Assembly (NCBI RefSeq): GCF_009914755.1
Contig: NC_060934.1
Strand: one strand, 5' to 3'
DNA: 64,000 bases
From: the human T2T-CHM13v2.0 reference genome, Homo sapiens
Part shown: in pieces, positions 13,586 to 18,230 of the stretch
How positions within the stretch are numbered: the first letter of the stretch is position 1
Layout of the letters: each line of letters begins with the position of its first letter
Program-made: the position numbers and the translations under genes
Notes under the pieces: model-generated
What the model saw: the letters and a program-made list of their open reading frames with translations, nothing else
Databases searched by the model: none
What the model was told of the DNA's origin: nothing

Positions 13586-14003
13586 TGTGAGAAACACATT
13601 CACCCGTCCAAACCCGATGAATGGACTCAGAGACATGAAGAACAGCGGAAGTGAGACTTTCAATGGCAGTCTTGCAAGATCAGGTGTCTGGTAGGCAGGC
13701 ACACCCGGGGCAGGTACAGCAGGTAATTTATCTCCTAGCACGCAGGTCTCTTCCCCAGTTCCTCACTGGTCGAGTACTATGGGGTTACAGTCTTCCCGGA
13801 CGTTGCCTAAGTTTCATTATCCCCCTTAAAAGGTTATACTCCAGTCCCCTTCCCCCCGTAACTTTCAATTTCCCAATAGCAAAACTTTCTTCCCTTTTAT
13901 GGGCTGACCCCTCCTCTACATTCTGATCACTTATCATGACTTTATAGGTGCATGAGCCATGCAATTTGTCACATCCGCAGGCTGACTGCCAGTACTTAGA
14001 TTT
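13586..14003 (-). repeat. Provirus 3' LTR, missing the first ~41 bp of U3
   Basis: Aligns to 17773-18189; similarity ends at gtacttagattt and joins directly to env sequence. Confidence 0.92.
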
Positions 14004-14472
14004 GTTTCTCGGTCTAGAATGGATGGATTGTCATTGGTGATGAGTATAGGATTGCATTCTAAATTGTGGCAGTTATTTGGCAGGGAGCCCTTGGACAGAT
14101 GTAGTTTATTCTTCAAGGGTCTCCAGCTTAGAGTTACCCACCCCGTTTACTGTCCAACCCTGAAAATGGGTAGTCTACCATACATCATCCCAGCTGGGTG
14201 GGGCAGGATGATGCTCTACTGTAACCTGTATCTGGTTCAGGGCAAAGATACTTATCTGCCTGCGAGAGCTATCCCTGATTTTCCAAATTCCCACAAGGTA
14301 AGACCTGGCAGGCATCAAATCTTACAGTCTGGGATGCTACTGTCTTGGTTACACTAATTACCAACCTCATTGGATAGGGAGGAGTCCCCTGCCAGTTTCC
14401 ATTTTGACCTTCTGCTTTTTGTATAGTAGCCCATCCCAGCCATATTAACTTCGAGAAATGGGGCCAACCCAT
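14004..14472 (-). pseudogene. env: env remnant (signal peptide and start of SU only)
   Basis: ORF MGWPHFSKLIWLGW...RLVISVTKTVASQTVRFDACQVLPCG resembles the HERV-IP-type SU N-terminus. Confidence 0.75.
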
Positions 14473-14624
14473 GTTTTCTTTTTAGATTTTTCTCAGAGTT
14501 AACTTTAAGGGTTCCTCAGTGCACTTTCCACTGGTCTTTTCCCCTCCCTTCCAGGGTCTCTTTTACCAATCCCTTGACTCAAGGATAGTGAGTCCACCCC
14601 TGTTCAGCTGTTTGCACAGCTATC

Positions 14625-16702
14625 TTAGTGGGGACCTTCCCAGCTTGGGTGGAGCTTGTCTTCTTTCCAAATCTTAATCAGCACCAAGTTGCCAGGCTGG
14701 AAGTGGTGAACCGTGAACTCAAGAGGTGGCATTTGAGTCAGAAGTCCTCTTAACCTAAGGGATGACAGGGTGGAGGATATGGCCAGTATATAATTTCTTA
14801 AGCATTGATCCATGGTTTCCATAGTAGGGAGGATCTGTAGCTCTGCCCAAATATGGGTGCCCCTATAATAACTCATAGGGGGATAATCCCAAGTATTTTC
14901 TTGGGGCTGTCATAATCCTAAGGAGTACTATTGGGAGACATTTGGTCCAGGGTATTTTAGTTTCTAGATTAGTTTGGTGATTATGCTTTTTGAGAGTTTG
15001 ATTCATTCTTTCTACCTTTCCAGAGGAAGGGGGATGCCAAGGGGTATGATAATCTCATCTAATTTGTAAACCTTCCATAATTCCCCTTAACACCCTTGAG
15101 ATAAAGTGGCTCCCATTGTTTGAATCAATATTTTCTACCAGGTCAAATCTAGGTACAGTCTGTTCTAATATTATTTTGACCACATTACTGGCAGTGGCTG
15201 TTGGAAGGGGAAAGGCTTCCACCCAGCTGGAAAGGTGACCTACGATCACCAGTAAATATATCAGTCTTCCTCCTTTGGGCATTTCTGTGAAATCTACTTG
15301 AATGCTTTGAAATGGTCTTAGTCTGGGAGGTCTTCCTCCTGTGGCCTGTTTTCTGATCACCTTTTTGTTTATCCTTTGACAAGTTACGCAACTTCCACAT
15401 ACTTGTTTAGCAGGGGTATAAATCCCTGTACACCCATACCCTGTTGCATCATGCAGAGTCGGGGATCCCCAATGACTCCTTTTGTGTAATATAGACGTTA
15501 GCTCTCTCATCAGGGGTTTACTTATTTTTCTTCCATCGGGAAGTATCCATCTCATCTTCAGTTTGAGTGACCCCTATCCTGTCTAATTCTTCTTTCTCCT
15601 CTCTGATAAACTGGGGCCTTAATACTACCTTAGGGATGTCTGGGATCAGGCTAAATAGTCTAATTTCTTCCTCCAGGGAGGCTTGCTTAGCAGCTTCAGC
15701 TGCAAACCTGTTTGCTACAGCTTCTGTGGTGTTCCCTTTCTGAAAACCATTTACATGAACTATGGCTACCTCTGCTGGAAGCAAGAGGCTTTCTAAAACC
15801 TGTTTGGCCAGTTCCAAATGTACCAATTATTTTCTCCTGCTATTTATTAGGCCCCACTCTGTCCAGATTTTTCCAAAAGTGTGTACCACTTTGGATTTTA
15901 AGTAGGCATACTTAAATTCAGTGTATATAGTGCCTTTTTGGCCTTCAGGGAGCTTTAGGGCCTGGTTAAGAGCATAATAATTCACAGGTTTGGGCTAACC
16001 AGCAATTAGGTAATCTTCCTTTCTCACATAAGGAGTGTTTATTTCCATCAATGACACCATCACTGTTATGTCCCTTGCCATCTGTCACTGGAGACAGCCC
16101 ATCCACAAACAGCCTTATCTCATCATGTAGTAGAGCTTCCCTAAGGTCTGGTCTAACTTTGGTTTGGTATTCTATGATACCTAAGCAGTTATGATCTGAT
16201 GTCTCTTTGTTCTCCTCTCCTTTCCCTAGAAAACTGTCTGGATTCAGGCAAGTATTTGTTGTTACGACCAAGTCATCTTTTTCTAGTAATACAGCCTCAT
16301 ATTTTAGAATCCGAGAATCAGTTAACCATCTTCCAGCTCTTTGATTTAATATATTCCTGACTAGGTGTGGGGTGCTTACTATTAGGGCCCCACCAAAGGT
16401 TAGCTTTCTAGTCTCCTCTACCAGCAAGTCTGTGGCAGCTATTGTTTGCACACATTTGGGCTACCCTTGAGAGACAGGATTGAGAAGCTTGGAGACAAAA
16501 GCAGCAGGTTGCCTTTTCCCACCCCATATTTGAGTGAGCACTCCAAGGGCCATGCCCTAGTCTACTGTTAGAAACAGGTGGAATGGGTTCTCTAAAGATG
16601 GGAGGGCCAGGGCTGTAATGAGGGCCTGGTTTAGCTCTTTCACTGCCTGAATTTCTTCTGAGGACCACTGCAAGTGATCAGGTTCCTCTTCTAATAACTT
16701 GA
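14625..16702 (-). pseudogene. pol: pol remnant: RT connection, RNase H and integrase, frameshifted
   Basis: ORFs with GRWLTDSRILKYEAVLLEKDDL, AIVHVNGFQKG...NRFAAEAAKQA, HWG...C..C, PFQSIQVDFTEMP, WVEAFP, IDSNNGSHF, LHPSWEGP. Confidence 0.93.
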
Positions 16703-17220
16703 CCGGCCGGATGCAACAGGGAAAGAAGAAGGGGTGGGGACACGGGGCAGAGCCAGTCCTCCTGTTTGGGGCCTGGGCCTAGGAAAGCTAACTAGGGGCA
16801 GGAAAGGGGAGCCCCAGGCTGTGGATGCCTCTGCGGGGGAACGTTGGGTCAGCAACGGCCAGAGGAAATCCTAAGGCCAAACAGTATCTGTGGCCTCCCT
16901 ACCTTTGGGCATCTTCTGGTCGCCAATTTGCTGCAAGTCACAGCTCCCAAATCTGGTTGTGCAGGCTCCAAAGCAGTGGAGCCTGGCTTTTCTGCCATCT
17001 CCACCTCCTGGATCTCAGAGCTGCTGGATGGCTCCACCCACCACCCGCTGAGCTGGCCCCACTTGGGGCTGGCATTGGTGGACAGCATGTTCCGGGCGCC
17101 TCTGCTCCTCTTTGCTGGGGCCTGCACCTTTCCTGGCTGCTGACTCATAGATGTCAGAGCTGCAGGACGGCTCCACAGAAGCCCTGTGTTTAGGACACCT
17201 CATTAGTGAAGGAGAGTGGA
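16703..17220 (-). other. Non-retroviral GC-rich insert replacing gag-pro-RT; contains an exon-like segment 16903-17183
   Basis: No retroviral motifs; bounded by the gag DSPLGL codons and the pol KLLEEEPD codons; minus-strand ctaat...aaacacag|GG acceptor and AAG|gtaggg donor. Confidence 0.7.
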
Positions 17221-17316
17221 GAGTAAACCCAAGGGACTATCCAGAGGAATGTCAGATGGAGTCTCTTTGGCTCCCTCTTTCCTTTGTCCCCTAAGCCTAG
17301 AATTTCTGTTTCTCAT
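17221..17316 (-). pseudogene. gag: gag N-terminal remnant
   Basis: Manual translation MRNRNSRLRGQRKEGAKETPSDIPLDSPLGLL carries the class I matrix motif IPxDSPLG; a stop follows a few codons into the insert. Confidence 0.8.
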
Positions 17317-17750
17317 TTTCAGTCAGTCTCTGTGTCTGAGCTTTTCCCTGTGTACTCAACTCCCCAACTGGAGGTTTCTTGCACACCTCGAGAATCGCTT
17401 TGTCTGTCTCTGGCCGTTTCCCTCGCAGAACGGAACTGCAGATTGGGACTCTGCACTTGCCTTATATCTGGGATACGTCTCAGTCACACACACTCGACCT
17501 CCAAAAATGCCCAACCACCAAGGCAGTACTTAGAGTCCAATTTTCCTACCTTGGCTTGTGCATGAGGTTTCCTGGTTGCTGCAGTGCCTGCTTTTCTCCG
17601 TATGTCACCTCCACTGCCTCCTGAATAACAGTCTCAGGTTTGTCTATGGCCTTTGCAAGGAGCTGGGACACTCAGACAGAGCGGGCCACCTAAATCGGGT
17701 GAGATTCATCTCCCTTTTCGGCCGGAGTCTGACTCTACGCCGGCATAAAG

Positions 17751-17768
17751 ATCCCAGACGGGCCCCCA
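17751..17768 (-). promoter_or_regulatory. Primer binding site, tRNA-Pro-like
   Basis: TGGGGGCCCGTCTGGGAT, 16/18 match to the tRNA-Pro PBS TGGGGGCTCGTCCGGGAT, 4 nt from the 5' LTR end. Confidence 0.85.
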
Positions 17769-17772
17769 AGTT

Positions 17773-18230
17773 TGTAAGGGAAACATTCACCCGTCCAAAC
17801 CCAAATAATGGACTCGGAGACATGAAGAACAGCGGAAGTAAGACTTTTAGTGGCAGTCTTGCAAGATCTAGGTGTCTGGTAGGCACACACACCCACGGCA
17901 GTTACAGCAGGTAATTTATCTCCTAGCACGCAAGTCTCTCCCCCATTTCCTCACTGGTCGAGTACTATGGGGTTACAATCTTCCCAGACGTTGCCTAAGT
18001 TTCATTATCCCCCTTATAAGGTTATACCCCAGTCCCCTTCCTCACTTAAGTTTCGATTTTCCGATAGCAAAACTTTTCCCTTTCATGGGCTGACCCCTCC
18101 TCTACATTCTGATCACTTATAGTGACTTTCTAGGTGCATGAGCTGTGTGGTTTGTCACATCTGCAGGTTGACTGCCAGTACTTAGATTTAGCATGCCTTG
18201 AAAATGGATCATTTAAAATGTTTTCTCACA
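17773..18230 (-). repeat. Provirus 5' LTR (458 bp, LTR71/LTR10-like)
   Basis: TG...CA termini; minus-strand start tgtgagaaaacattttaaatg; adjacent PBS. Confidence 0.92.

What the first reader, a model, noticed from the sequence alone, without database searches (positions are those of the whole stretch)
16703..17220. Provirus carrying a captured exon-like host fragment in place of gag-pro-RT (candidate retroviral transduction)
Seen: on the minus strand, gag starts at 17316 and runs to the matrix motif DIPLDSPLGL (about 17221). About 520 bp of GC-rich sequence with no retroviral motifs follows, and pol resumes abruptly in the RT thumb/connection (KLLEEEPDHLQW, about 16702). The insert has intron-exon-intron anatomy: pyrimidine-rich stretch and branch-like ctaat, acceptor aaacacag|GG at 17183, a 281-bp segment with one frame open throughout (...MSQQPGKVQAPAKRSRGARNMLSTNASPKWGQLSGWWVEPSSSSEIQEVEMAEKPGSTALEPAQPDL...), donor AAG|gtaggg at 16903, then pyrimidine-rich intron-like sequence. 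There is no poly(A) tail or TSD, so it does not look like an L1-mediated insertion. Established: acutely transforming retroviruses replace viral genes with cellular sequence by template switching, and ERV capture of host genes is documented (e.g. FAM8A1). Inference: a defective HERV-IP/P71-like genome recombined with an unspliced cellular RNA and may have spread as a non-autonomous subfamily. I could not identify the donor gene.
Basis: partly seen in the sequence, partly recalled or inferred. Interest (0 to 1): 0.82.

Follow-up and report, generated by a model that had tools for sequence, protein, structure and literature searches.

The report
Rearranged old provirus with borrowed repeat DNA
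An ancient retrovirus copy in a MAPK8 intron lost its gag-pro-RT genes, and the gap holds a short flipped piece of its own RT gene plus about 490 bases copied from a non-coding human tandem repeat; it is a one-off rearrangement, not a captured exon.

Summary
The core observation holds. A minus-strand provirus (18230-13586) has LTRs 9.9% apart, a CATTG target duplication and gamma-type pol.

- **Breakpoints:** family homology stops in gag at 17228 and resumes in pol at 16702. These points lie about 3.0-3.4 kb apart in relatives.
- **Filler, part 1:** 17227-17189 is an inverted copy of RT sequence from 126-168 nt upstream of the 3' break.
- **Filler, part 2:** 17188-16703 is an internal, GC-rich piece of a low-copy 1.85-2.5 kb tandem repeat. 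I found about 39 copies: 15 at chr10p12, 21 pericentromeric, acrocentric or 4q35 (18 beside FRG1 exons), and 3 on chr16/19. The best identity is 83-86%, and the insert sits in no extant clade.
- **Exon reading fails:** the "acceptor" straddles a junction and its "pyrimidine tract" is antisense RT. The open frame is chance level (832 of 1000 shuffles) and is lost in 16 of 20 relatives. Pfam finds nothing.
- **No spread:** no other T2T site spans either junction, so no subfamily exists.
- **Junction overlaps:** 4, 0 and 1 nt.

Most likely this was post-integration break repair or replicative template switching (about 0.55). Template switching during reverse transcription remains open (about 0.33). 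Interest is modest.

The parts
17773..18230 (-). 5' LTR (458 bp). It starts TGTGAG and ends ..TTACA, and is preceded by CATTG at 18235-18231.
   Evidence: LTR pair alignment; relatives match from about 18230.
17751..17768 (-). Primer binding site, 18 nt, 4 nt after the LTR. It looks proline-tRNA-like, but that label is recalled and not tested.
   Evidence: Sequence read; the tRNA assignment comes from memory only.
17228..17772 (-). Leader and the first ~30 codons of gag (ATG at 17316). This is the last stretch colinear with the family before the break.
17189..17231 (-). Inverted copy of RT sequence (end of RVT_1) from 126-168 nt upstream of the 3' break. TGGG at 17231-17228 is shared with gag, a 4-nt junction overlap.
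   Evidence: matched in 9 of 9 pol relatives at the same place, in opposite orientation. It maps to L049 1329-1371, and RVT_1 ends at about L049 1338.
16703..17188 (-). Foreign piece: an internal, GC-rich part of a low-copy 1.85-2.5 kb tandem repeat unit. T at 16702 is shared with pol, a 1-nt overlap. There is no overlap at its 5' end.
14004..16702 (-). Rest of pol (RT connection, RNase H, integrase) and the first ~600 bp beyond integrase, colinear with relatives.
   Evidence: Pfam rve, rve_3 and MLVIN_C; RT_RNaseH_2 in the chrX relative.
14003..14004 (-). Second deletion junction. The remainder of env, the polypurine tract and the first ~41 nt of U3 of the 3' LTR are missing. About 1.86 kb lies here in the chr17 relative, including an Alu-like insert.
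13586..14003 (-). 3' LTR, truncated at its 5' end (418 bp). It ends CTCACA and is followed by CATTG at 13585-13581.

Best explanation
After an old gamma-type ERV had integrated antisense in a MAPK8 intron, a DNA break or a stalled replication fork inside it removed about 3.3 kb, from gag codon ~30 to the RT thumb. The gap was closed with two filler pieces.

- The first is 39-43 nt copied in inverted orientation from the RT gene, 126-168 nt from the right-hand break.
- The second is about 487 nt copied from a distant unit of a non-coding tandem repeat, either from its DNA or from a transcript of it.

This is a complex deletion with templated insertions, made by end joining or replicative template switching. 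It has no function of its own.

Shown: the three junctions, the two origins of the filler, the uniqueness of the chimera, and the absence of coding signal. Inferred: the timing (after integration) and the repair pathway.
For: 1. The inverted local fragment sits at the 5' junction, and the repair returns to the original template within 170 nt of where that fragment came from. From general knowledge, this geometry is typical of replicative template switching or polymerase-mediated templated insertion at breaks.
2. The junction overlaps are 4, 0 and 1 nt, with no TSD and no poly(A). These are the features listed for class 2 templated sequence insertions. Those inserts come from distant regions and measured 73-414 bp in experiments (PMC5110952, passages read).
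3. The chimera is unique in T2T-CHM13. Apart from the window's own row, none of the 28 matches or the 39 crosses a junction.
4. The same provirus carries a second large deletion that must post-date integration. It removes the first ~41 nt of U3 from the 3' LTR, and the 5' LTR keeps them. So this copy did suffer large post-integration damage.
5. The donor family is non-coding and CpG-depleted, with o/e at most 0.45 in the chr4 copy. It is not an obvious abundant mRNA.
Against: - Nothing in one genome dates the event relative to integration.
- A 3.3 kb loss is far more than the 'microdeletion' described for class 2 insertions.
- The blunt junction J2 fits microhomology-primed replication poorly.
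- This ERV family did propagate internally deleted genomes. Two relatives on chr15 and chr3 have unrelated flanks but share one gag-to-integrase deletion. Rearranged genomes made at or before reverse transcription were therefore in circulation.
- The deletion spares everything a packaged genome would need in cis: leader, PBS and, originally, the 3' end.
- No donor unit closer than 83% (full length) or 86% (partial) survives.
Confidence: 0.55

Rival explanations
1. The chimera was made before integration. During reverse transcription of a defective genome, the enzyme switched template three times: from pol to a co-packaged host transcript of the tandem repeat, then to a complementary copy of RT sequence, then to gag. 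The product integrated once. This is LTR-mediated retroposition, or 'deletion with insertion'.
For: - Host sequence lies between discontinuous viral segments, with both LTRs and a CATTG target duplication present.
- There are no L1 hallmarks.
- This architecture, including multiple switches and short extra sequences at junctions, is described for LTR-mediated retrocopies, 3 of them in human (PMC5131818, passages).
- RT is known to make 'deletions with insertions' (PMC3187697, passages).
- The family mobilised deleted genomes.
- Leader and PBS are retained.
Against: - The inverted RT fragment needs a template of the opposite sense. That means a DNA copy of a region not yet reached on the same template, or a switch during plus-strand synthesis followed by heteroduplex resolution (inference).
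- Overlaps of 0 and 1 nt are weaker than the microsimilarity reported for such events.
- The captured piece is not a processed mRNA.
- There is no second copy.
- Non-homologous switching is at least 1000-fold rarer than homologous switching.
Confidence: 0.33
2. A two-step or other history: for example, a deletion with the inverted fragment came first and a separate insertion of the repeat fragment followed, or the piece arrived by ectopic repair from an already rearranged template.
For: The three junctions differ in character, with overlaps of 4, 0 and 1 nt. The provirus shows more than one deletion event.
Against: It needs two independent rare events at the same spot. No intermediate is seen.
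Confidence: 0.07
3. The 487 bp are a transposable element, such as a solo LTR, that inserted after integration, or they are ordinary family gag/pro sequence.
For: The piece is multi-copy, with about 39 copies.
Against: - In other copies the homology runs on past both ends of the piece, inside a 1.85-2.5 kb tandem unit. It therefore has no termini of its own.
- There is no TSD.
- Pfam finds nothing in 7 frames of the piece or in 15 ORFs of the chr9 unit.
- It has no match in the 22 relative loci. In the chr7 relative these loci cover all but 45 nt of the deleted interval, and in the chrX relative all but 367 nt.
- No ERV relative appears among the hits.
- Dfam and RepeatMasker were not available, so a curated name cannot be excluded.
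Confidence: 0.03
4. It is an assembly artefact.
For: None found.
Against: The insert is 14-17% diverged from every near-full-length copy. The junctions are clean, and the flanking provirus is equally old. A mis-join would carry a near-identical copy of some other locus.
Confidence: 0.02

Closest known systems
Class 2 templated sequence insertions at repaired double-strand breaks (Onozawa et al., as reviewed in PMC5110952)
   Same: A few hundred bases are templated from a distant locus and placed at a break. There is no TSD and no poly(A), and junction overlaps are short or absent.
   Different: Here the insertion comes with a 3.3 kb deletion and a second, inverted local filler. At 487 nt it is slightly above the experimental range of 73-414 bp. 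The exact donor is not found.
LTR-mediated retroposition and retroviral transduction (Tan et al. 2016, PMC5131818; FAM8A1 in a HERV-K, cited there)
   Same: Host sequence is embedded between discontinuous parts of an LTR element, with both LTRs and a target duplication. Multi-switch chimeras are known.
   Different: The captured piece is not a processed mRNA or an exon. One filler is inverted viral sequence. Microsimilarity is weak at two of three junctions. The locus is single.
Replicative complex rearrangements (FoSTeS/MMBIR), named from general knowledge with no paper read
   Same: There are several template switches, and an inverted segment is copied from close to the break.
   Different: One junction has no microhomology, and one template is on another chromosome arm or another chromosome.
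Gamma-type (class I) HERV with a proline-like primer site.
   Same: It has an LTR pair, a PBS and gamma-type integrase with an MLV-type C-terminus. Relatives carry Gag_p30 and RVT_1.
   Different: The family name could not be tested because no Dfam was available. This copy lacks gag-pro-RT, most of env and the start of its 3' LTR.

Membership tests
Retroviral transduction of a cellular gene (v-onc type) | Host-derived sequence inside a retroviral genome, between viral segments and LTRs | tested here: met
Retroviral transduction of a cellular gene (v-onc type) | The captured sequence is exonic (usually spliced) sequence of a cellular gene | tested here: not met
   The relatives are internal parts of a non-coding tandem unit. 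Pfam finds no family. The frame is lost in 16 of 20 relatives. The ORF is at chance level. The 'acceptor' is a junction artefact.
Retroviral transduction of a cellular gene (v-onc type) | The recombinant genome replicated, giving further copies with the same junctions | tested here: not met
   Apart from the window's own row, none of the 28 matches or 39 matches crosses a junction. Only one human assembly was searched.
LTR-mediated retroposition (Tan et al. 2016) | Internal host sequence flanked by discontinuous LTR-element sequence, with both LTRs present and no L1 hallmarks | tested here: met
LTR-mediated retroposition (Tan et al. 2016) | Microsimilarity at the fusion points | tested here: inconclusive
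   Overlaps are 4 nt (TGGG), 0 nt and 1 nt.
LTR-mediated retroposition (Tan et al. 2016) | The parent is a processed transcript, shown by exon-exon junctions | tested here: not met
   The piece is colinear with genomic copies of the repeat over its whole length. No gene parent was found.
Class 2 templated sequence insertion | [quoted passage not shown] | tested here: inconclusive
   The family is found at about 39 other places, but the nearest is only 83-86% identical and the insert branches deep. The true donor is not identified.
Class 2 templated sequence insertion | No TSD and no poly(A), with end-joining signs at the junctions | tested here: met
   The criteria come from PMC5110952.
Replicative template switching (FoSTeS/MMBIR) | Microhomology at every switch | tested here: not met
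   Junction J2 (17189|17188) has none, with +/-2 nt uncertainty from a possible CpG change.
Replicative template switching (FoSTeS/MMBIR) | Templated segment from nearby sequence, often inverted | tested here: met
Transposable element insertion | Copies share discrete termini and have target duplications | tested here: not met
   Homology between other copies continues past both ends.
Gamma-type (class I) endogenous retrovirus | LTR pair with target duplication, a PBS, and gamma-type gag and pol domains | tested here: met
   Gag_p30 and RVT_1 were seen only in relatives, because this copy lacks them.
   No Dfam or Repbase was on hand.

The most novel reading that the evidence does not exclude
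The chimera is a fixed product of three non-homologous template switches during reverse transcription of a proline-primed gamma-type retrovirus that packaged a non-coding transcript of a host tandem repeat. That would be a fourth human case of LTR-mediated capture and the first of non-genic RNA. No human copy is closer than about 85%, and the insert branches at the base of the family tree. The capture could even have happened in another host lineage before the virus entered the human germ line.
Probability: 0.3. Interest if true: 0.55.

Novelty: new member of a known kind. Interest (0 to 1): 0.3.

Why it matters
The finding removes a tempting false lead. This provirus holds no captured exon, no transduced gene and no hidden non-autonomous subfamily.

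What remains is a cleanly resolved three-junction rearrangement in an old provirus. It would serve as a worked example for telling reverse-transcription errors from post-integration repair. Comparing the orthologous intron in apes and Old World monkeys would settle that in one step.

The work also exposes a low-copy tandem repeat shared by chr10p12 and the FRG1 duplicon. I could not name this repeat.

Tried and rejected
- **Pfam.** Seven frames of the insert and its chr9 homologue gave nothing, apart from one chance hit at E 0.35. Fifteen ORFs of the chr9 tandem unit gave only chance hits at E 0.03-0.08.
- **Rfam.** Two 10 kb repeat loci gave 0 matches.
- **ESM Atlas.** The 116-aa frame scored at best 0.76, below the level that means anything, and the model pLDDT was 0.24.
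- **FRG1 first exon.** I looked for it in three 10 kb loci and did not find it. FRG1 exons lie 27-38 kb away instead.
- **CpG island idea.** Rejected: o/e is at most 0.45 in the chr4 copy.
- **Dating the insert from its divergence.** The terminal branch is 0.084, against about 0.054 per LTR lineage. This is uninformative because the donor lineage is not preserved.
One 4 kb stretch was taken instead.
- **Pathak and Temin 1990** (PMC54464) is not held, so I know it only as a reference in PMC3187697.
- **Naming the repeat and the ERV family.** I ran no paper search for either name, and I opened no supplements.

Full report
**The provirus**

On the minus strand lies a 4.6 kb provirus, 18230-13586.
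- Its two LTRs align over 413 sites with 41 differences (9.9%; K2P 0.108; 0.089 without CpG sites).
- The LTR begins TGTGAG and ends CTCACA. The same five bases, CATTG, flank both ends at 18235-18231 and 13585-13581. The two LTRs therefore belong to one integration.
- An 18-nt primer binding site follows the 5' LTR at 17768-17751. Calling it proline-like rests on recall only.
- Pfam finds an integrase core (E 2e-11), plus rve_3 and the MLV-type integrase C-terminus, both below their curated cut-offs.
- In a chrX relative, Pfam finds Gag_p30, RVT_1 and RT_RNaseH_2.

This is a gamma-type (class I) ERV. It lies antisense to MAPK8, according to the hub's gene table.

**The break points**

Searches of the window's own assembly with the leader and with pol found about 40-50 family copies each.
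- Homology with 9 of 9 gag relatives ends at 17228, after ...SPLG. The relatives then continue with gag sequence that the window lacks.
- Homology with 9 of 9 pol relatives begins at 16702.
- In relatives the two points lie 3.0-3.4 kb apart: 3368 bp in chrX, 3141 in chr3 and 3046 in chr7.
- In the chrX relative the 3' break lies between the end of RVT_1 (about L049 1338) and the start of RT_RNaseH_2 (L049 1541).

**The filler is composite**

BLAST of the provirus against the relatives gave an unexpected inverted hit. Window 17231-17189 matches the antisense strand of RT, 126-168 nt upstream of the 3' break.
- With short-word BLAST the match appears at the same place and orientation in 9 of 9 pol relatives. 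Three match over 43 nt (E down to 3.6e-10) and six over the last 24-25 nt.
- Only 17188-16703 is foreign.

The junction overlaps are:
- J1: TGGG, 4 nt, between gag and the inverted piece.
- J2: none, between the inverted piece and the foreign piece. This is uncertain by +/-2 nt because of a possible CpG change.
- J3: a single T, between the foreign piece and pol.

**The foreign piece**

It matches 42 other rows in T2T-CHM13, about 39 distinct copies, at 68-86% identity.
- None of the 19 best loci has ERV sequence within 1.5 kb.
- The 12 larger loci were aligned only with the insert, not with the provirus.
- Fifteen copies form three clusters of five units on chr10 at 26.60, 26.66 and 26.97 Mb.
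- Twenty-one lie on chr4q35, chr9, 13, 14, 15, 20, 21 and 22.
- Two lie on chr16 and one on chr19.
- A search with the Pfam FRG1 domain places FRG1 exons 27-38 kb from 18 of those 21. The three chr9 copies have none listed. These 18 are therefore copies of one duplicon.
- Self-comparison shows that the copies are internal parts of a tandem unit of about 1.85-2.5 kb. Homology between copies runs on past both ends of the window's piece.
- The piece therefore has no termini of its own. It is not a discrete mobile element.
- The repeat has no Pfam or Rfam signal and is CpG-depleted.
- The nearest near-full-length copies differ by 14.6% (a chr10 unit) and 15.6% (chr9). A partial chr20 copy differs by 12.5% over 224 sites.
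- In a tree of 21 near-full-length copies the insert branches deep, with a chr16 copy at support 0.845, and lies inside no extant clade.
- No parental unit survives in this assembly.

**The exon reading**

- The proposed acceptor lies on junction J2. The sequence upstream of it is antisense RT.
- In the repeat copies the corresponding upstream sequence is not pyrimidine-rich.
- The window's piece has open runs of 132, 115 and 112 aa in three of six frames. Of 1000 dinucleotide shuffles, 288 reach 132 aa and 832 reach 93 aa.
- Among 20 relatives the segment length differs by a non-multiple of three in 18. Only 4 have any stop-free forward frame.
- The donor-like AAG|GTA(G/A)GG keeps its GT in all 20. 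This is the one element that could reflect a real splice site in the repeat. With so few independent lineages it proves little.
- The Atlas search gave nothing usable.

**Uniqueness**

Queries spanning J1+J2 and J3 found only matches that stop or start at the junctions. Apart from the window's own row, none of 28 matches and none of 39 matches crosses one. The chimera did not spread, at least in this assembly.

**Other damage, and the family's habits**

- The stretch 14631-14006 is colinear with relatives.
- In a chr17 relative, about 1.86 kb follow that point, including an Alu-like insert, before the 3' LTR begins.
- In the window this interval is missing, together with the first ~41 nt of U3, and the junction is simple.
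- The 5' LTR keeps those bases, and both LTRs are copied from one template. This deletion must therefore post-date integration.
- Two relatives on chr15 and chr3 have unrelated flanks but share one gag-to-integrase deletion.
- At least seven loci share a ~100-nt gap in the leader.
- So the family did propagate deleted genomes.

**Mechanism**

Two known processes fit.

Break repair with templated insertions:
- Class 2 insertions lack a TSD and poly(A), show end-joining signs, and come from distant regions (PMC5110952, passages).
- Replicative template switching belongs here too.
- These explain the inverted nearby fragment, the return to within 170 nt of it, and the blunt or near-blunt junctions most simply.

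Template switching by reverse transcriptase:
- It makes 'deletions with insertions' (PMC3187697, passages).
- It also makes LTR-flanked chimeras with multiple switches (PMC5131818, passages).
- It fits the overall architecture and the family's record.
- However, it needs an opposite-sense template for the inverted piece, and it captured something that is not an mRNA.

I put post-integration repair at about 0.55, a pre-integration RT origin at about 0.33, and other histories at the remainder.

**Limits**

- No other primate genome was available.
- No Dfam or RepeatMasker was available.
- No gene annotation outside the window was available.
- No supplements were opened.
- The family counts are lower bounds, as the search tool states.

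Noticed in passing
window 14003-14004 (minus strand): A second, simple deletion joins sequence about 600 bp beyond integrase directly to position ~42 of the 3' LTR. It removes most of env, the polypurine tract and the start of U3. It must post-date integration, because the 5' LTR keeps those bases.
   Followed up: yes
L040 (chr15:72.93 Mb) and L041 (chr3:149.09 Mb): Two relatives of the same ERV family are colinear through an identical gag-to-integrase deletion but have unrelated flanks. This points to a deleted variant that was copied to new sites.
   Followed up: partly
one search hits on chr1 (x2), chr2, chr5, chr6, chr7, chr13: At least seven family copies match the leader as two pieces (1-125 and 228/234-393). 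They share a ~100-nt gap, suggesting another propagated variant.
   Followed up: no
G000 chr10:26.60, 26.66 and 26.97 Mb (L021-L026): Three clusters, each of five diverged tandem units of 1.85-2.8 kb with a GC-rich core. The same unit occurs once, 27-38 kb from FRG1 exons, in the 4q35, pericentromeric and acrocentric duplicon. I could not name this repeat.
   Followed up: partly
window 16899-16907 and the same column in 20 repeat copies: The motif AAG|GTA(G/A)GG keeps its GT in all 20 relatives, although the copies differ by 15-25% overall. It may be a used splice donor of a repeat-derived transcript, or just a conserved patch.
   Followed up: partly
L057 about 1000-1320 (chr17 relative): An Alu-like insertion sits inside env of the chr17 relative. 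I recognised it by eye from the ORF translations; it was not tested.
   Followed up: no
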